Origin: Nanobdellota archaeon
Lineage (GTDB): Archaea; Nanobdellota; Nanobdellia; Parvarchaeales; Parvarchaeaceae
DNA: 64,000 bases
Reading direction: 5' to 3'
NCBI GenBank assembly: GCA_021818905.1
Contig: JAKASS010000002.1
Coordinates: 24,142 to 88,141, forward strand
This document shows, piece after piece, positions 17,101-58,085 of this stretch; the first letter of the stretch is position 1; the number at the start of each line of letters is the position of its first letter. Under the pieces are notes generated by a model. That model was not told where the DNA came from. It ran no database searches and saw only the letters and a list, made by a program, of their open reading frames with translations. The position numbers were made by a program, and so were the translations under genes.

Positions 17101-18603
17101 ATAGGAGGTGATCCAGCCGCACGTTCCCGTACGGCTACCTTGTGGCGACTTAACCCTACTCACTGAGTCTAGATTCGGTTATCATTAATACGACAGTCTC
17201 ATCTAGATCCAACTTGTCTGGTTTGACGGGCAGTGTGTGCAAGGAGCAGGAAAGTATTCACCGCGCTTTGTTGAAACGCGGTTACTACGGATTCCGCCTT
17301 CACGAGGCCGAGTTACAGACCTCGATTCGAACTAGGATAAAGATTGTAGGATTGGCTTCTCCTTTCGGAGTTGCTTCCCATTGCCTTTACCATTGCAATT
17401 CGCGTGTAGCCCAGAAGATTAGGGTCATACTGACCTACCGTCGCCCTCACCTTCCTCTTTCTTTCGAAAGCAGTCTCCATATTTTGCTCGTTCATAACGG
17501 ATTACACGTTAGCAAATATGGAAGAGGGTCTTGTTAGTTACCCGACTTAACGGGACGTCTCAAGATACTAACTGATGATGGCCATGCAACACCTTTCAGC
17601 GTATTAGGCAAGTTCTTCAGACTGGCCTTCATCTTGCTGTCGCTTCTGGTAAGATTCCCGGAGTTGAATCCAATTGAACCGCAAATTTCACCCGTTTTTG
17701 TGCTCCCCCGCCAATTCCTTTAAGTTTCGACCTTGCGATTATACTCCCCAAGTGGCTTACTTAACGCCTTCGCTGTCACACTGCATTTCCTCAAGGAAAT
17801 GCAACGTATAGTAAGCAGCGTTTACTGCTAGGGCTACCCGGGTATCTAATCCGGTTCGTTCTCCTAGCCTTCGTCCCTCACCGTCAGGTCCGTTCTGGGA
17901 ATGCGCCTTCGCCACTGGTGGTCTTTTCCAGATTAAAGGATTTTACTCCTACCTAGAAAGTTCCCATTCCCCCTCCCGGCCTCTAGTCTGAAAGTATTCA
18001 TACCATATTGTCCAGTTAAACTGAACGATTTAAGCACGAACTATTCAAACCAGCTACGAACGCTTTAGACTCAATAATAATGGTCACCACTCGAGCGACG
18101 GGTATTACCGCGGCTGCTGGCACCCGTTTGCCCCGCTCTTATTCGCCATGCCATTTAAAAACATGGCAAAAGTTCCTTCTTAAAAAGAAGAAACACTTGG
18201 GATCCCCCTATCACACTTTCGTGCATTGTAGAGTTTTCGGGACTGCTGCACACCGTAGCGCTAGGGTCCTTGTCTCAGTACCCTTCTTGGGGAAACCACT
18301 TCCATGGCCCCTACTGATTTTAGATTTGGTGAGCCGTTACCTCACCAACAGTCTAATCAGGCATAGACCGATCGTAATGCGATTTATAACGGTAATAGTC
18401 ATAAACCTTTCACAATAAAATCGTTTCAGAAACTATTGCTATGGAGTATTAACCTCAGTTTCCCGAAGATATTCTCCTCATTACGGTACGTTATCTATGT
18501 GTTGCCTAAGCCGTACGCTATCAACCCTTACCGGGCAGATAAAACTTGCATGTCTCATTCGAATCCCAATAGCAGTGACCTCCAGCAGGATCAACTGGAA
18601 TTG
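17101..18603 (-). rRNA. rrs: 16S ribosomal RNA (unlinked, no adjacent 23S/5S)
   Basis: Minus strand: 5' end ATTCCAGTTGATCCTGCTGGAGG (revcomp of 18581..18603), 515-region GTGCCAGCAGCCGCGG (18105..18122 revcomp), 1390-region, 3' end GGATCACCTCCT (revcomp of 17103..17114). Confidence 0.9.
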
Positions 18604-23412: not shown

Positions 23413-23525
23413 TGGGGTCAGCCGGATTTGAACCGACATCAAACGCTTTCTTCTAATCATCCTTTAAAAGTCATTTTTCCAGACGAGCTGGAGGCGTTTG
23501 TTCTACCTGGTTAAACTATGACCCC
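23413..23525 (-). tRNA. tRNA-Trp (anticodon CCA) with ~40-nt intron in anticodon loop
   Basis: Minus strand: acceptor GGGGTCA/TGACCCC, D-arm, anticodon stem AACGC/GCGTT with loop CTCCAG|intron|A, T-arm GTCGG-TTCAAAT-CCGGC; total 113 nt. Confidence 0.7.
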
Positions 23526-37572: not shown

Positions 37573-37657
37573 ATCTTTTTAATAAATCCACTCGTATAAA
37601 TGCATTAAAACAGATAAAATTACGATAATATTTATAGCGTAGACAGCTAAGATACTT

Positions 37658-37948
37658 ATGTACAAAGCAAATGCTATAGTATTGATAGTACTTGTTGTGC
37701 TTGTGGTTGCTGCAGCACTATTTTATACAAACACCGGAGAGAACCATCGTACCGTTTCCGTAGGCCTGTGTGAGCTAGAATGTCAGAACATTACAGCACA
37801 TGGTGCTACGTACACAAATTACTGCGCTGCAAAGAACATAAGTTATGGTTATTCTTGTGCGATATCACAGACTGCTAACTCATCGATATGCGGGAATCCT
37901 ACAACAGTTTACGTAACAGACAGTTGTCAACTTGTAGACGTCGGCTAG
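37658..37948 (+). CDS. small secreted cysteine-rich protein
   Basis: 96 aa; N-terminal hydrophobic signal/anchor (IVLIVLVVLVVAAALF), 8 Cys in 70 aa, N-x-S/T sequons. Confidence 0.4.
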   Translation: MYKANAIVLIVLVVLVVAAALFYTNTGENHRTVSVGLCELECQNITAHGATYTNYCAAKNISYGYSCAISQTANSSICGNPTTVYVTDSCQLVDVG

Positions 37949-38042
37949 GCGTGTGCATAACTGTCTTGTAGCGTGACTAGATACTCATCAAAATTACCCC
38001 GTTCCTGCACACAAAGTAGAAAATGAGGAGTTATGCACAGGC
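37948..38042. mobile_element. MITE-like 95-bp element with 11-14 bp terminal inverted repeats, flanked by 14-bp direct duplication GTAGACGTCGGCTA
   Basis: Direct repeats at 37934..37947 and 38043..38056 are identical; TGTGCATAACT (37952..37962) is the perfect reverse complement of AGTTATGCACA (38029..38039). Confidence 0.4.
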
Positions 38043-38061
38043 GTAGACGTCGGCTAAATGC

Positions 38062-38763
38062 TTATCGTCGTTTTCGCTTTGAAGATTTATTTTGACGTGA
38101 TTTCTTCGATTTTTTTCCCCCTGTGACTGCCGGGAGACTGTTGTCTATTTCGCCAAGTTTTCTTATCTTTTCGTTCAAGAAAGAGATTCTATTCTCTTTT
38201 TCGCCGACTACTTGTGATGTTTCCATATGCACCAAGGTGCCATTGCAGTTTGCACAACGAAAGTCATTCTCGAGGGCTTGCTTTAATTCATATTGCCTGT
38301 TGCATGTTTCGCAGATATAAAAGTCATTGGCCTTGTTAAGGTCTATGGATTTCTTCGCTTGTTGTATTTCATCCTCATATTCCTTCTTTATAAGGAAAAT
38401 CAACCTTTCCGGGTTTGCTTTCCAATAGTAAGTATACCACGCCTTTGCGCCCTTCTTTTTCTTCGTATACGAAACCAAATTTTTGTTATATAGTTTATAC
38501 AAGAACTTTCTTATTGCGTTCGCCTTTTCGAATTTCAACTTCTTTGCTAAGGTATTCTCCTCCATTGGACCTTTTGCGATTAAGTACTTGAACACTTCCA
38601 AGCCTTTTTCGCCGCTGAGATCGACAACGTATTTAACCGCTTCTTCTAGCGAAAGAAGCTTGTTTATGTTTATTACCACTTTCTGAGGCTTTTGTTGCTT
38701 AACCGCAGGTTCCCTTTTTCTGCTTTTAGAAACTTTCTTTCCTCGTTTTATTTTCTTAGCCAT
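38062..38763 (-). CDS. tfe: transcription factor E (TFE alpha, TFIIE-alpha homolog)
   Basis: 233 aa; winged-helix region plus C-terminal zinc ribbon CETC...CANC; unusual K-rich N-terminal 40 aa and K/R-rich tail. Confidence 0.7.
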   Translation of the reverse strand: MAKKIKRGKKVSKSRKREPAVKQQKPQKVVININKLLSLEEAVKYVVDLSGEKGLEVFKYLIAKGPMEENTLAKKLKFEKANAIRKFLYKLYNKNLVSYTKKKKGAKAWYTYYWKANPERLIFLIKKEYEDEIQQAKKSIDLNKANDFYICETCNRQYELKQALENDFRCANCNGTLVHMETSQVVGEKENRISFLNEKIRKLGEIDNSLPAVTGGKKSKKSRQNKSSKRKRR

Positions 38764-44345: not shown

Positions 44346-44847
44346 TAGGTTTTAAAGAAATTAGCATCTATTTAAAGGTATGCTTATGCAGAGCGTTGTA
44401 GTTTAATTACCAATAAAACTACAAAATCGGGAATAAAACTACAAGATGATTTGGCCAGTAACAGCTCCGAAAGTGGAAGTCTTAAATAAAGCGGACTACT
44501 CTAAGCTATTATGGCAAAGGTGAAGGTTACTTTTAAAGTCGATTCTTTTCGCATGGAAACTAAGGAATTTGACTTGGCTGATTCGGCGCAGGCGGAAGCC
44601 TTGGATATTCTCTTGAAGAAGCATCCGGAACTAAAACTTAAACCACCAAGAAAAGAGACTAAAATCTAGCCGCCCCTCAAGGAAGAAAAGCGAATCAAAA
44701 AGATCGAGGAATACTATTAGAAATGGTTAATAGAGACTAAGAAAGAATGGATCAAGCTGGGCGGAAAAGTTTAGAGTAACTACAGAATTTGAGGGTTATA
44801 ATATTATTAAAAATTAATTTAATAATCTAATGACACTTTAATAATAT

Positions 44848-45267
44848 ATGCAAAATAAAGAAATACTGAGAAAGCTTCAAGAATATAATAAGATATTAGA
44901 CGAGTTGCAGGCTGCTGGCGTGTTAAACTCCGCAAATTTGGTTTCTTCATATGGTGAATATGTAGCATGTAAGCGTTTACACTTAACACGCAATAGTAAC
45001 TCTAATCAGAAAGGATACGATGCATTAGACAAAAAAGATAAAAAATATCAAATAAAAGCTCGTAAAGATAGTAGACGTAGTAAAGGTATGGTATTCCTTA
45101 TAAAAAGAGAAAAAATAAAGGATTTCAATTATTTAATTCTAGTAAAATTCGATTTTTATTGGGACATAAAATACATGCTTAAACTTTCTCAAAAGGATGC
45201 AAAAAGAGAGTGGTCTAACGGAAGGATAAACGAAACGATAGACTTAGTTAAGAAATTTAAAATATAA
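44848..45267 (+). CDS. hypothetical protein with PD-(D/E)xK-nuclease-like core (Hjc/restriction-endonuclease-like)
   Basis: 139 aa; N-terminal helix, then GEYVA ... KGYDALD ... KYQIKARK arrangement resembling E / D / (E/Q)xK catalytic triad spacing; adjacent to IS remnants. Confidence 0.3.
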   Translation: MQNKEILRKLQEYNKILDELQAAGVLNSANLVSSYGEYVACKRLHLTRNSNSNQKGYDALDKKDKKYQIKARKDSRRSKGMVFLIKREKIKDFNYLILVKFDFYWDIKYMLKLSQKDAKREWSNGRINETIDLVKKFKI

Positions 45268-45431
45268 AAATTAATGTTTTTGAATAAAGATCGTTTTTTT
45301 AGATTTAATTCTTCTTTTTCATTAAGTTTTTTCTGAGTTTTTCTAAAACCACGAGCCGTCGCCATACCAATTCATTTTCTTTACATGTTTCTATAACGAC
45401 TACTGCTTTTTTAGGGTCCAGATATTCCTTT

Positions 45432-45836
45432 GTGAACAGCTTGACGTCCTCGTTCATCACTTTGTCGACTTTATTGTACATTACGCTTGGCGGGACTGCT
45501 TACATCCCTTTCGGAAGTAATGCCAGTGGTAAGCCAAGAGGAAAATCTTGGGTATGGAGAAAGATGTTCAATTACTTCGTCTACCAGAGAGAGGAGTTTA
45601 TGGGACACTATCACTTGAGAAGCAACATAGAAACGACCAACTTTATGATAAAAGCCAAGTTTGGCGATGTGGTTAGAAGCAAGAATAAGACCGCACAAAT
45701 AAACGAGGTCTTGTTAAAAGTCCTTTGCCATAACATAGTTGTGCTTATACAATCGATGTTTGAGCTAAATATAGAGCCAGAATTCTTATCGAATAAAACT
45801 ACAAACGAGGTGATTAAACTACAGAAAAACAATTAA
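45432..45836 (+). pseudogene. IS4/IS5-like DDE transposase, C-terminal fragment
   Basis: 134 aa ORF whose upstream part is degraded; C-terminal RSNIETTNFMIKAKFGDVVRSKNKTAQINEVLLKVLCHNI resembles the conserved C-terminus of IS5-family transposases. Confidence 0.5.
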
Positions 45837-45862
45837 ACGACAACGCCCTTGTGCAGGGCGTT

Positions 45863-46805
45863 GGGCACTGTTACCAAATACGGTTGGTGAATGTTAATTA
45901 CATCGGCTGCCATCTTTATTTAAGGTAAAAAATGGAAAACCGATGTAATTATTGTAAAAGTAGCAGCGCAGCCTTAAATGGTTTTAGAAAGACGAAAAAC
46001 AGGGGAAACATACAGCGATACCGCTGTATGTCCTGCGGTAAGACGTTCGTGGAAAACGGCGGTTTCAGGTGGAAACACCATGCGAAACGCACCATAATCG
46101 GCAGTATTCACCTCCATCTGATAGGATCGTCGCTTAGGGACGCTGCAAAGTTCCTTTCCGTGTCCGTTGATTCCGTATTCAGGTGGTTTCTTGAATACGG
46201 AAAAATGATCATAGGATACGTAAAGGACATGAAGCCTTTCAGGACGGAAAGGCTTCACATGGACGAGATGTCCGTAAAGACGCGTGGGAAGTCCTTTTAC
46301 GTATGGGCTTCCATCTGCAGGGAGAGCAGGTTTGCCACGGCTTTTCTCGCTTCCGACAGGACGAAGAAGAACGCCAGACTGCTGATGAAGGAGTCCCCGC
46401 CAGCCATGAACATCACCACGGACGGAGCCTTCGGATACGGATCCGTAATAAAAGACTTAAAAGGCTTGGGGTATCACCACGACCACTATCACCGCTGCGC
46501 TTCCTTCGAGGACAAGAAGGACAATAATCTCATAGAAAGATGGAATAATTCCTATCGTGCTAATACCCACGAGCTTCGCGGGTTCAAGGAGCTTTACACT
46601 GGAGACTTGTTCGTAAGATTGTGGACGTTCTACTATGACTTCATAAGGCCGCATTCTTCCCTCGGCAGGACCCCTGCTGAAGAAGCGGGACTTGTAAGGT
46701 ATCACGAAGGCGATGATTGGTTCGGACGGTGGGAACGATGGGTCGAGAGAGCTTCGCTCTCTTTTTATTTGGCTTATATATCAACCGTATTTAGTAACAG
46801 TGCCC
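45863..46805 (+). mobile_element. IS6-family insertion sequence (~943 bp) with 26-bp imperfect terminal inverted repeats
   Basis: Left IR GGGCACTGTTACCAAATACGGTTGGT (45863..45888) vs reverse complement of right IR (46780..46805) GGGCACTGTTACTAAATACGGTTGAT, 24/26 identical; IR start GGCACTGTT matches IS26/IS6-family IR consensus GGCACTGTTGCAAA; element is markedly GC-richer than flanks. Confidence 0.7.
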
Positions 46806-46981
46806 AGGAATCTGCCAAATCCTTCCTTCGAGGTCTCCGTGTATCCCTCTTTTATTATTTTTCCATGTTCTTCCACCACTACATAGCTCTGCCTCTTTCC
46901 CGTGTTTATCGACACTACCCTCCCTGCCGTCTTTTCCGTTTCTCCCATGTTCCCTTCGCCTCCGAAAGCGACGACCTTTGA
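45932..46981 (+). CDS. tnp: IS6-family DDE transposase with N-terminal zinc ribbon (frame reads through right IR)
   Basis: N-terminal CNYC...CMSC ribbon; DDE region HMDEM ... ITTDGAFGY ... NNLIERWN collinear with IS26 Tnp (DETYIK ... IVTDKA ... NNLIEQDH); no stop codon before right IR so ORF continues 59 codons into flanking DNA. Confidence 0.7.
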   Translation: MENRCNYCKSSSAALNGFRKTKNRGNIQRYRCMSCGKTFVENGGFRWKHHAKRTIIGSIHLHLIGSSLRDAAKFLSVSVDSVFRWFLEYGKMIIGYVKDMKPFRTERLHMDEMSVKTRGKSFYVWASICRESRFATAFLASDRTKKNARLLMKESPPAMNITTDGAFGYGSVIKDLKGLGYHHDHYHRCASFEDKKDNNLIERWNNSYRANTHELRGFKELYTGDLFVRLWTFYYDFIRPHSSLGRTPAEEAGLVRYHEGDDWFGRWERWVERASLSFYLAYISTVFSNSAQESAKSFLRGLRVSLFYYFSMFFHHYIALPLSRVYRHYPPCRLFRFSHVPFASESDDL

Positions 46982-47122
46982 CTTGTCGTCGCTTTCCGTA
47001 AACTATTTATTCTCTCTCTTTATTATGCCCCACGATCATAAGTCGCAATCAGCATTAGAATATCTCTTGACCTATGCACAAGCGTAGATAAGTTTTATTA
47101 GAACAAATTGCATAAAATAACA

Positions 47123-55707: not shown

Positions 55708-55729
55708 TGGCCAACTTAGATTCTTAATT

Positions 55730-55804
55730 GGGCTCGTAGCTTAACTTGGACAGAGCAGCAGACTTCTAATCTGCGGGTTGGGGGTTCAAATCCCTTCGAG
55801 CCCA
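55730..55804 (+). tRNA. tRNA-Arg (anticodon TCT)
   Basis: 75 nt: acceptor GGGCTCG/CGAGCCC, anticodon stem GCAGA/TCTGC with loop CTTCTAA, T-loop TTCAAAT, discriminator A. Confidence 0.8.
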
Positions 55805-55926
55805 ATTATCAGTACATTGCCATGTAAATTTTGGCAAATCTGCCTCGCAGAATGCTTGCCATAGCTTACCAGTTGCGTTTTCTGAAAATGGGTACCCCTT
55901 AGAACCCGCCCAAGATTTAACTCATT

Positions 55927-56367
55927 TTGGCAAATCACCAAAAGATGTTTTTAACTGTTCTGCCAACAAATGGTATGAACAGAAAATATTCTATAGAGTT
56001 AAAAGAGCAGGCGATAAAACTTGCGGAAAGCGGCAAAACTAAGAGGGAAATAGCCAACACCCTGGATATTTCATATTATACAATCCATAAGATGGTTTAT
56101 GGCCATTGCGTTTCCCGAAAACACTCTCAAGATGTAAAAAACAAGGCAAGGGAACTTATAGAGAAAGGCGTATCAAAAGGTCGTGTAGCTTACGAACTAG
56201 GCATCCCTTTAGGCACGCTGGCGCACTGGGACATTCCGAGTCCAAACCCGCCGAAAAGCTACGGTAAAGAAATCAAGGACAAAGCAGCGCAGATGGTTCT
56301 GTCTGGAATGTCGATATCGGAAACGGCTAAACAATTAGGTACGCTTGTGCATAAGTCCCTTAAATAA
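55927..56367 (+). pseudogene. transposase N-terminal HTH fragment (IS630/IS3-OrfA-like), truncated
   Basis: 146 aa with two helix-turn-helix segments (KTKREIANTLDISYYTIHKMV; SISETAKQLG) and no catalytic domain; located just 3' of tRNA-Arg. Confidence 0.45.
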
Positions 56368-56412: not shown

Positions 56413-56652
56413 TCAGCCGATCAGTCTATTGTAAAGCATCACCTTCAGCTTGATCTCGTTCTGCACGGACTTCCATCTTCGGGAGCATACGTGCTCCCCG
56501 AACCTCCGCTTAAAGGCGGAGAAGAAGGATTCTACCAGCCATCTTTTCCCGTATCCGACCTTTTCCTTCCATTTCTTCTGGTAGTAACGCATCACTTCAC
56601 GTTCATTGAATAGTACGGTGCCATCGGTAACGGGAGGATCATACCAATTAAA
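56413..56652 (-). pseudogene. IS5-like transposase C-terminal fragment
   Basis: Open frame FNWYDPPVTDGTVLFNEREVMRYYQKKWKEKVGYGKRWLVESFFSAFKRRFGEHVCSRR... carries the conserved IS5-family C-terminal RW.VE..F...KR.FG motif; GC-richer than flanks; begins directly after the stop of the upstream gene. Confidence 0.5.
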
Positions 56653-57999: not shown

Positions 58000-58085
58000 T
58001 GGGCCCAAAGGGATTCGAACCCCTGATCTTCCGCATTTTGAGCAAACTCGTCAAGCGGACGTCGTAACCACTGGACCATGGACCC
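58000..58085 (-). tRNA. tRNA-Val (anticodon GAC) with ~13-nt intron
   Basis: Minus strand 86 nt: acceptor GGGTCCA/TGGGCCC, anticodon stem TCCGC ... GCGGA separated by loop TTGACG plus 13 extra nt, T-arm AGGGG-TTCGAAT-CCCTT. Confidence 0.6.

What the first reader, a model, noticed from the sequence alone, without database searches (positions are those of the whole stretch)
37934..38056. MITE-like insertion with a 14-bp target-site duplication between convergent genes
GTAGACGTCGGCTA occurs twice, 95 bp apart. Between the copies a 95-bp segment is bounded by perfect 11-bp inverted repeats TGTGCATAACT / AGTTATGCACA. The first copy encodes the last codons of the Cys-rich protein and the second copy would regenerate the same end (...VDVG stop). 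That layout is exactly what a TSD-generating insertion leaves. The alternative is a large terminator hairpin, but a 14-bp perfect direct repeat is very unlikely by chance.
Basis: seen in the sequence. Interest (0 to 1): 0.5.

Follow-up and report, generated by a model that had tools for sequence, protein, structure and literature searches.

The report
Small transposon insertion between two genes
A roughly 100-base non-coding mobile element, with ends like those of an IS5-family insertion sequence left in the same genome, has inserted exactly where two convergent genes of a tiny DPANN archaeon abut; it is a real but fairly ordinary transposon footprint.

Summary
GTAGACGTCGGCTA occurs at 37934-47 and 38043-56, and these copies enclose perfect 11-bp inverted repeats.

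Four related Parvarchaeota genomes have the same gene order, but their two stop codons lie 0-4 nt apart. The window carries 109 extra bp, so this is an insertion with empty sites.

A homologous element (77% identical, ends identical) sits in a different context in another DPANN genome (L016). Two further related 18-bp termini lie in the window. One lies 57 nt beyond the stop codon of a truncated IS5-family transposase gene.

Aligning the six termini shows that the conserved end starts at S-T-A. The element is therefore most likely 102 bp (37945-38046), with 18-bp imperfect inverted repeats and a 7-9 bp duplication centred on a 13-bp palindromic target. The perfect 14-mer then arises because the target's outer arms (TAG/CTA) mimic the element's tips. 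A true 14-bp duplication is not excluded.

Multi-copy status, an intact parent element and activity were not shown: I found one complete copy in about 84 kb.

No Rfam match, no shared RNA fold inside the stem, and no Cas1, PolB or integrase gene were found.

Verdict: a MITE-like derivative related to the IS5 family, a new member of a known kind, of modest interest.

The parts
37658..37948 (+). Gene for a 96-aa Cys-rich protein with an N-terminal membrane helix. Its last codon(s) and stop are the insertion target. The protein is unchanged by the insertion; the stop is now TAG instead of the inferred TAA.
   Evidence: ORF. Twelve homologues all end ...(V/I)G*. Junction table.
37934..37947 (.). 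Copy 1 of the perfect 14-bp direct repeat GTAGACGTCGGCTA (native end of the gene).
37938..37944 (.). Left copy of the inferred 7-bp target-site duplication ACGTCGG, the centre of the 13-bp palindromic target TAGACG-T-CGGCTA.
   Evidence: Boundary inference from six aligned termini and from the L016 flanks ACTTTTG/ACTGTTA, 5 of 7 identical (read).
37945..38046 (+). It is non-coding and has 47% GC in a 38.7% GC genome.
   Evidence: Absent from four relatives. Homologue in L016 at 2146-2248, 77% identical. GC values.
37945..37962 (+). Left terminal inverted repeat CTAGGCGTGTGCATAACT (18 bp). It is identical in the L016 copy.
37963..38028 (+). 66-nt interior, 68% identical to the L016 copy, with a conserved 9-mer AGTAGAAAA. 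The two copies share no fold here.
38029..38046 (-). Right terminal inverted repeat (minus strand CTACGCCTGTGCATAACT). It matches the left repeat at 16 of 18 positions and the IS5-remnant terminus at 15 of 18.
38047..38053 (.). Right copy of the inferred 7-bp duplication ACGTCGG.
   Evidence: As for 37938-37944.
38043..38056 (.). Copy 2 of the 14-bp direct repeat. With the next A it would restore ...VDVG-TAA, 4 nt from the TFE stop.
38062..38763 (-). Convergent gene for transcription factor E (TFIIE-alpha domain), 233 aa. Its 3' end (38062-38145) encodes a 27-aa Lys/Arg-rich tail found in no homologue.
56339..56356 (+). Terminus GTACGCTTGTGCATAAGT of an IS5-family remnant, related to the small element's ends.
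   Evidence: 0.04 matches expected by chance, 2 extra found. Alignment 17 of 19.
56416..56652 (-). 79-aa C-terminal fragment of an IS5-family DDE transposase. Its stop codon lies 57 nt before the terminus at 56339-56356, and it reads towards that terminus. It is truncated at the stop of the thermopsin gene (56653).
   Evidence: translation. Pfam DDE_Tnp_1 2e-8. NCBIfam transpos_IS5_2 1e-16, profile positions 229-287 of 289. Best annotated relative is a Sulfolobus IS5-family transposase, 43.5% identical.
47070..47087 (-). Second related terminus (CTACGCTTGTGCATAGGT), apparently solo, at the edge of a cluster of IS fragments.

Best explanation
A short non-autonomous DNA transposon (MITE-like) inserted at the point where the Cys-rich protein gene and the TFE gene meet tail to tail. 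It is most likely a deletion derivative or end-mimic of an IS5-family insertion sequence. The inferred mechanism is as follows. A DDE transposase supplied in trans bound the two 18-bp inverted ends (CTAGGCGTGTGCATAACT / AGTTATGCACAGGCGTAG). It made staggered cuts placed symmetrically around the centre of a 13-bp palindromic target (TAGACG-T-CGGCTA) formed by the last codons and stop of the Cys-rich gene. Gap repair then duplicated 7 bp (ACGTCGG), or possibly 9 bp. Because the target's outer arms TAG and CTA happen to equal the element's tips, the visible direct repeat is 14 bp. The first bases of the element (C-TAG) complete the last Gly codon and supply a new stop, so the protein is unchanged. 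The TFE stop is also untouched, which explains why the insertion is tolerated in a very compact genome. Shown: the insertion with empty sites, the inverted ends, a homologue at another site in another genome, and related ends next to an IS5-family transposase remnant. Inferred: mobilisation in trans, the exact boundaries and duplication length, and the parent family.
For: Empty sites: L006, L007/L008, L009 and L050 have identical synteny with the stop codons 0-4 nt apart, against 113 nt here. Removing 109 bp restores a 4-nt spacer. The repeat architecture is beyond chance. The insertion is the same in independent assemblies. Second family member: L016 2146-2248 in 'Nanoarchaeota archaeon FK2.bin89' (about 50% GC, against 38.7% here) lies in a different context, upstream of a pilin-like gene and beside an MNT/HEPN pair. 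It has an identical left arm, 16 of 18 in the right arm, and a 68% identical interior. Related termini: an 18-mer search with up to 3 mismatches finds two extra sites where 0.04 are expected. One lies 57 nt beyond the stop of a transposase fragment, which reads towards it; the fragment matches IS5 family E=1e-16 and DDE_Tnp_1 2e-8. Six termini share S-T-A-S-R-C-N-TGTGCATA, and the bases outside are unrelated. The L016 flanks are 5 of 7 identical immediately outside those tips. The closest annotated transposase relative is a 1057-bp Sulfolobus IS5-family element with 19-bp inverted repeats and a perfect 9-bp duplication, so long duplications occur in this branch. Two Logan contigs of this genome end or start inside the element and inside the IS5 fragment, as happens at repeats. 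No RNA-family match and no shared interior fold.
Against: Only one complete copy was found in the window plus about 20 kb of flanks, and only one in 18 kb of the L016 contig. No further family members turned up in the species-representative genomes, JGI metagenomes, viral contigs, plasmids or phages with the patterns used. No intact cognate transposase or full-length parent with both ends was seen. The link to the IS5 remnant rests on about 18 nt of similarity. The perfect 14-bp repeat is more simply read as a 14-bp duplication if only this locus is considered. Under the 7-bp model, 7 extra matching bases must be put down to a palindromic target that resembles the element's tips. L016 has no clean duplication. 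A neighbouring change, the unique 69-nt extension of the TFE gene, is unexplained and shows the junction has had more than one event.
Confidence: 0.72

Rival explanations
1. The same kind of element, but with the first reader's anatomy: a 95-bp element (GGCG...GGC) and a true 14-bp target-site duplication, made by an enzyme with a long stagger such as a casposase-like Cas1 integrase or an unusual DDE transposase.
For: The repeat is a perfect 14 of 14. Casposases duplicate 13-15 bp and often insert at the 3' ends of genes. M. mazei casposons have 14-bp duplications whose end sequences are conserved between loci (PMC5137440; PMC4779613). The L016 right flank resembles the 14-mer, with only 1.2% of background windows scoring as well.
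Against: All six termini, including two next to unrelated flanks, carry the S-T-A tip that this model assigns to target DNA. In L016 the outer positions of a would-be 14-mer do not match each other, and its left flank is no better than 30% of background windows. The ends resemble an IS5-family remnant, not a casposon. No Cas1 or PolB gene is present among the window genes annotated. The papers read do not mention casposon-derived MITEs.
Confidence: 0.12
2. A small structured RNA gene, or a selected hairpin such as a bidirectional terminator or insulator between convergent genes, rather than a selfish element. The long stem would be an RNA helix and the direct repeat incidental.
For: The 18-bp stem with two conserved G-G mismatches is kept in both copies. 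There is one G-C to G-U change and two compensatory changes in small hairpins on the plus strand. The segment's GC content (47%) is above the genome average. The window copy folds better than shuffled sequence when trimmed to the stem (z = -3.3).
Against: No Rfam family matches even at E up to 10. The interiors fold differently in the two copies, and the L016 copy is no better than shuffled sequence (z = -0.9). The wider segment gives only z = -1.75. I saw no bulge-helix-bulge motif and no conserved C/D box by eye. No terminator-like signature is present. The segment is absent from four close relatives at this locus, and the pattern found nothing elsewhere in the species-representative genome collection apart from L016, which is unlike a needed RNA. 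The same 18 nt occur as solo ends next to a transposase remnant.
Confidence: 0.08
3. A scar of site-specific integration, or a repair-mediated filler insertion: a short DNA that carried its own copy of the 14-mer (an att-like core) recombined with the matching end of the gene. Alternatively, an 11-bp tandem duplication already existed and an element that duplicates only TA landed inside it.
For: The L016 right flank resembles the 14-mer. The 14-mer is a quasi-palindrome, like a recombinase core site. Every terminus has TA at positions 2-3, which would fit a TA duplication in a CTAG-type target.
Against: No integrase gene was found in the window genes annotated. 109 bp is too small to be an integrative element. 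The tandem-duplication variant needs an extra event that no relative shows. The closest annotated IS5-family relative duplicates 9 bp, not 2.
Confidence: 0.05

Closest known systems
Prokaryotic MITEs derived from IS elements, for example the Sulfolobus SM1-SM4 families and MITEAba12 (review PMC10969869)
   Same: About 100 bp, non-coding, terminal inverted repeats, flanking target duplication, an intergenic or gene-end location, and ends resembling those of an insertion sequence in the same genome. MITEs are already known in several archaea, and copy number can be as low as 1 per genome.
   Different: Multi-copy status is not shown: one complete copy in about 84 kb. No full-length parent with both ends was found. 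The host is a DPANN (Parvarchaeota-like) archaeon, a group not among the archaeal hosts listed in that review. The apparent direct repeat of 14 bp is unusually long.
IS5-family insertion sequences of archaea, ISC1058-like (represented here by the 1057-bp element on Sulfolobus islandicus pYN01, L058 870-1926)
   Same: The transposase fragment next to the related terminus is closest to this group (43.5% identity; NCBIfam IS5 family 1e-16). Both have inverted repeats of about 18-19 bp with a shared GCTT(T)GTG core by eye, and a long duplication (9 bp in the Sulfolobus element).
   Different: The small element has no transposase gene. Its ends are only loosely similar to the Sulfolobus ends. The duplication inferred here is 7 bp (9 possible), and the window holds only a 314-bp remnant of the IS.
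Casposons (Cas1-dependent self-synthesising transposons)
   Same: A duplication of 13-15 bp, insertion at the 3' end of a gene so that the gene end is regenerated, and inverted-repeat ends.
   Different: No Cas1 or PolB gene was found. The element is 100 bp, not 8-20 kb. Its ends match an IS5-family remnant. The comparative evidence puts the real duplication at 7-9 bp.

Membership tests
MITE (miniature inverted-repeat transposable element) | Small size and no coding capacity | tested here: met
   95-102 bp. No ORF of 40 aa or more is listed inside 37945-38046; only the two flanking genes overlap its edges.
MITE (miniature inverted-repeat transposable element) | Terminal inverted repeats | tested here: met
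   11 bp perfect, or 16 of 18 when extended to the conserved tips.
MITE (miniature inverted-repeat transposable element) | Flanking target-site duplication, with the element absent from the same site in relatives | tested here: met
   Perfect direct repeat (7-bp core, 14 bp apparent). Four relatives have the uninterrupted junction.
MITE (miniature inverted-repeat transposable element) | Multiple copies per genome at different sites | tested here: inconclusive
   One complete copy plus two related solo or IS-linked termini in 64 kb, and none in a further 20 kb or so. One copy at a different site in another genome. The rest of the home genome could not be searched.
MITE (miniature inverted-repeat transposable element) | Ends matching an autonomous element whose transposase can act in trans | tested here: inconclusive
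   15 of 18 (17 of 19 over the local alignment) identity to the terminus beside an IS5-family transposase remnant. No intact copy was found and no activity was tested.
IS5-family derivative | Ends and duplication length like those of IS5-family members of the same branch | tested here: inconclusive
   The ends match the local remnant. The nearest annotated relative has 19-bp inverted repeats and a 9-bp duplication. Here 7 or 9 bp is possible, and the subgroup is unresolved from a 79-aa fragment.
Casposon-derived element | Cas1 casposase (and PolB) in a parent element with the same ends | tested here: not met
   No Cas1 or PolB domain among the window genes annotated. The ends match an IS5-family remnant instead.
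Casposon-derived element | 13-15 bp target duplication | tested here: inconclusive
   The 14-bp perfect repeat is present, but six aligned termini place 7 of those bases in or mimicking the element's tips.
Known structured RNA family (Rfam) | Match to a covariance model, or a conserved fold | tested here: not met
   No match at gathering score or at E up to 10. The interiors of the two copies do not share a fold.
Archaeal bulge-helix-bulge processed or intron-like segment | Two 3-nt bulges on opposite strands separated by a 4-bp helix | tested here: not met
   Reading the predicted helix by hand shows single G-G mismatches, or one 3-nt bulge on one strand only. There is no staggered pair of bulges.

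The most novel reading that the evidence does not exclude
The 14-bp duplication is real and reflects an integrase with a fixed 14-15 bp 'ruler' of the casposase (Cas1) type. That would make this the first miniature, non-autonomous element mobilised by a casposase, spreading between DPANN archaea and targeting the 3' ends of genes. The resemblance to the IS5-remnant end would then be coincidental or reflect shared target and tip preferences.
Probability: 0.04. Interest if true: 0.65.

Novelty: new member of a known kind. Interest (0 to 1): 0.3.

Why it matters
DPANN archaea have very small, tightly packed genomes, and little has been written about their transposable elements. This locus gives a cleanly dated insertion with empty sites, the relic of a likely parent IS in the same window, and a homologue in a distant DPANN host whose ends are identical or nearly so. 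Together these suggest that small IS-derived elements move within, and perhaps between, these episymbiotic lineages.

It also shows where such an insertion can be tolerated. It sits exactly at the abutting stops of convergent genes, and the element's own tip rebuilds the stop codon.

On the practical side, it is a caution for annotation. A palindromic target that mimics the element's tips can inflate the apparent duplication (14 bp against 7-9 bp) and point to the wrong transposon superfamily. The core of the end sequence is also identical to the bacterial DnaA-box consensus, which fills pattern searches with replication origins.

Tried and rejected
**RNA and structure checks**
- Rfam at gathering score on the whole window and at E up to 10 on 37600-38400 found nothing at the locus. 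L016 also had no match.
- tRNA and tmRNA scan found nothing at the locus.
- RNA folding of both strands: only the terminal stem is shared between the two copies, so I rejected a structured RNA.
- A bulge-helix-bulge motif, C/D box and H/ACA features were checked by eye and rejected. The UGAUGA on the minus strand is not conserved in L016.
- Terminator and promoter scan found nothing at the element.

**Searches for more copies**
- Genome-collection scan with both 11-mers gave 38 hits. Of these, 37 are bacterial DnaA-box clusters or unrelated hairpins, and only L016 is homologous.
- Two metagenome scans gave no hits and one chance hit inside a bacterial gene.
- Three viral scans, plus blastn against plasmids and phages, found nothing.
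- A covariance model built from the two copies found no further copy in the window, the relatives' loci, 18 kb of the L016 contig or L049.

**Other leads**
- A second empty site for L016 could not be obtained because the database holds no close relative of that host.
- The TATA box upstream of the L016 copy probably belongs to the divergent pilin-like gene, so it is not evidence of an RNA promoter.
- The casposon lead: the literature confirms 13-15 bp duplications, but I found no Cas1 or PolB gene and no report of casposon MITEs.
- The IS6-like element in the window has unrelated 25-bp inverted repeats, so it is not the mobiliser.
- I looked for the origin of the TFE tail DNA by blastn-short against everything held, and found nothing.
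- Host divergence from shared proteins could not be measured, because the loci held share no genes.

Full report
**1.

GTAGACGTCGGCTA lies at 37934-37947 and 38043-38056. It occurs nowhere else in the window, even with two mismatches. TGTGCATAACT (37952-62) and AGTTATGCACA (38029-39) are perfect inverted repeats, set 4 and 3 nt inside the 95-bp spacer.

The 14-mer is itself a near-palindrome (TAGACG-T-CGGCTA), so the inverted repeat extends to 28 nt at 82%.

Copy 1 supplies the last codons of a 96-aa Cys-rich membrane protein (37658-37948) plus TA of its stop. Copy 2 followed by A would give the same end with TAA.

This is the only exact direct repeat of at least 14 bp within 300 nt in the window, against 0.125 expected per shuffle. 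A direct repeat enclosing an inverted repeat of at least 11 bp arose only 3 times in 200 shuffles.

The same sequence is present, 100% identical, in two independent assemblies, and the partial Logan contigs match over the halves they hold.

**2. It is an insertion**

The organism is a DPANN archaeon close to Candidatus Parvarchaeota (archaeal 16S; homologue names).

Homologues of the Cys-rich protein (82-67% identical) and of TFE (90-73% identical) led to four related loci: L006, L007/L008, L009 and L050. All have the same gene order. In all of them the two convergent stop codons are 0-4 nt apart, against 113 nt in the window.

Deleting one repeat copy plus the 95 bp leaves GGC-TAA-ATGC-TTA. 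That is a 4-nt spacer like those of the relatives.

**3. A second family member exists elsewhere**

I scanned one genome per species with both 11-mers and got 38 hits. Of these, 37 are bacterial. Most are clusters of DnaA boxes, because TTATGCACA fits the TTATNCACA consensus; the rest are unrelated hairpins.

One hit, L016 ('Nanoarchaeota archaeon FK2.bin89', about 50% GC against 38.7% here), is truly homologous. It is 77% identical overall and 68% in the interior. The left arm is identical over 18 nt and the right arm matches at 16 of 18.

Its context is unrelated. It lies 48 nt upstream of a large pilin-like gene and beside an MNT/HEPN pair.

Scans of JGI metagenomes, viral contigs, plasmids and phages found nothing further. 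A covariance model built from the two copies found no other copy in anything I held.

**4. It is not convincingly an RNA gene**

There is no Rfam match, even at a permissive threshold. Only the terminal stem is common to the two copies. Their interiors fold differently, and the L016 copy is no more stable than shuffled sequence.

By eye, I found no bulge-helix-bulge motif and no conserved C/D box. No terminator-like signature is present.

**5. Related ends sit next to a transposase remnant in the same window**

Searching with the 18-bp end and up to 3 mismatches found two extra sites where 0.04 are expected. They are 47070-47087 (minus strand, CTACGCTTGTGCATAGGT) and 56339-56356 (plus strand, GTACGCTTGTGCATAAGT).

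The second lies 57 nt beyond the stop of a 79-aa open frame on the minus strand (56416-56652), which reads towards it. That frame is the C-terminus of a DDE transposase:
- Pfam DDE_Tnp_1, E = 2e-8.
- NCBIfam IS5 family, E = 1e-16, matching the last 60 positions of the profile.

The remnant is cut off at the stop of a thermopsin gene. A Logan contig of the same genome starts inside it, and two others end inside the small element, as happens at repeats.

Similarity between the small element, the remnant and the other terminus is limited to the terminal 16-20 nt.

The closest annotated transposase is in a 1057-bp IS5-family element on a Sulfolobus plasmid. That element has 19-bp inverted repeats and a perfect 9-bp duplication.

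No Cas1, PolB or integrase gene was found among the window genes annotated. The only apparently full-length transposase ORF is IS6-like (it reads through its own right inverted repeat), and that element's 25-bp ends are unrelated.

**6. Boundaries**

I aligned the six termini from outer tip to inside. Conservation starts at S-T-A in every case:
- CTAGGCG (twice)
- CTACGCC
- GTACACC
- CTACGCT
- GTACGCT

The bases outside these tips are unrelated.

That gives a 102-bp element (37945-38046) with 18-bp inverted repeats (16 of 18) and a 7-bp duplication, ACGTCGG. In L016 the 7-mers just outside the tips are ACTTTTG and ACTGTTA, 5 of 7 identical. The outer positions of a would-be 14-mer do not match each other there.

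The duplication is centred on the middle T of the palindromic target. The target's outer arms TAG/CTA equal the element's tips, which is why the visible repeat is 14 bp.

A 9-bp reading (tips starting at TA) fits about as well: 6 of 9 identical in L016 by my own count, and 9 bp in the Sulfolobus relative. A true 14-bp duplication cannot be excluded from this locus alone. All these readings predict the same empty site.

**7. Mechanism and consequences (inferred)**

An IS5-family transposase acting in trans inserted the element into the palindromic end of the Cys-rich gene. The element's first bases (C-TAG) complete the Gly codon and supply the stop. Neither protein is altered, which is probably why the insertion survived between genes that otherwise abut.

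The hairpin now separates the two convergent genes by 113 nt. Any effect on transcription is speculation.

**8. What remains open**

- Copy number in the whole genome.
- An intact parent element with both ends.
- Whether the element is still mobile.
- How the two hosts came to share it, by descent or by transfer. The loci I hold share no genes, so host divergence could not be measured.
- The TFE gene here carries a 27-aa Lys/Arg-rich tail (38062-38145) that none of 40 homologues has. It lies right next to the insertion, and its origin is unexplained.

**9. Verdict**

It is probably wrong in detail: 7-9 bp rather than 14 bp, and 102 bp rather than 95 bp. One defining trait of a MITE, multiple copies, is unproven.

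This is a new member of a known kind. MITEs derived from IS elements are well known, including in archaea (PMC10969869). Interest is modest, at 0.3.

Noticed in passing
window 38062-38145 (minus strand): TFE carries a 27-aa Lys/Arg/Ser-rich C-terminal tail (DNSLPAVTGGKKSKKSRQNKSSKRKRR) where four relatives have (I/F)K(I/V)K-stop. None of 40 homologues aligns over it. That is about 69 nt of extra DNA directly beside the insertion, of unknown origin.
   Followed up: partly
window 45862-46806: An IS6-family-like element with 25-bp inverted repeats (96% complementary). Its transposase ORF (45932-46981; NCBIfam IS6 4e-22, DDE_Tnp_IS240 1e-11) reads through the right inverted repeat.
   Followed up: partly
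window 44390-45849: A possible further IS, bounded by 19-bp inverted repeats (44390-44408 / 45831-45849) with subterminal repeats. It contains an ORF (45432-45836) with a weak DDE_Tnp_1 C-terminal match (E = 0.003). The IS6-like element sits 12 nt from its right end.
   Followed up: partly
window 47024-47087: A short frame, MPHDHKSQSALEYLLTYAQA-stop, looks like the start of an archaeal pilin-type (class III signal peptide) gene cut short. Its last codons are the solo terminus at 47070-47087. The L016 copy of the small element also lies just upstream of a pilin-like gene.
   Followed up: no
window 55927-56367: A 146-aa protein with repeated helix-turn-helix motifs (HTH_Tnp_1 2e-11; below-threshold match to the CRISPR repeat-binding protein Cbp1) next to tRNA-Arg (55729-55805). 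Its last 10 or so codons are supplied by the terminus of the IS5 remnant.
   Followed up: no
window 17103-18601; 23413-23525; 58000-58085: The 16S rRNA gene stands alone, with no 23S or 5S rRNA match in the window. Two tRNA genes found by Rfam (113 and 86 nt) are missed by ARAGORN and probably contain introns.
   Followed up: no
L013, L015, L020, L028, L037, L046 (Microbacteriaceae genomes): These actinobacterial hits share long hairpins, of the form TGTGCATAACTC(C/A)(T/G)G...N...(C/T)(T/A)GGAGTTATGCACA, around GC-rich loops of about 50 nt. They are not plain DnaA-box clusters and may be a separate conserved element.
   Followed up: no
L051 2461-2945, 4023-4960, 6611-7563, 14638-15545 (contig of the L016 copy): The 18 kb around the second copy holds at least three, probably four, nucleotidyltransferase/HEPN-type toxin-antitoxin pairs, which suggests a variable, mobile-element-rich region.
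   Followed up: no
L003 end / L005 end; L056 start; L048 end: Short-read assemblies repeatedly break at these features. Two Logan contigs end inside the small element with a 14-nt overlap. One starts inside the IS5 fragment. An ENA contig of a relative ends 3 nt after the stop of the Cys-rich gene.
   Followed up: partly
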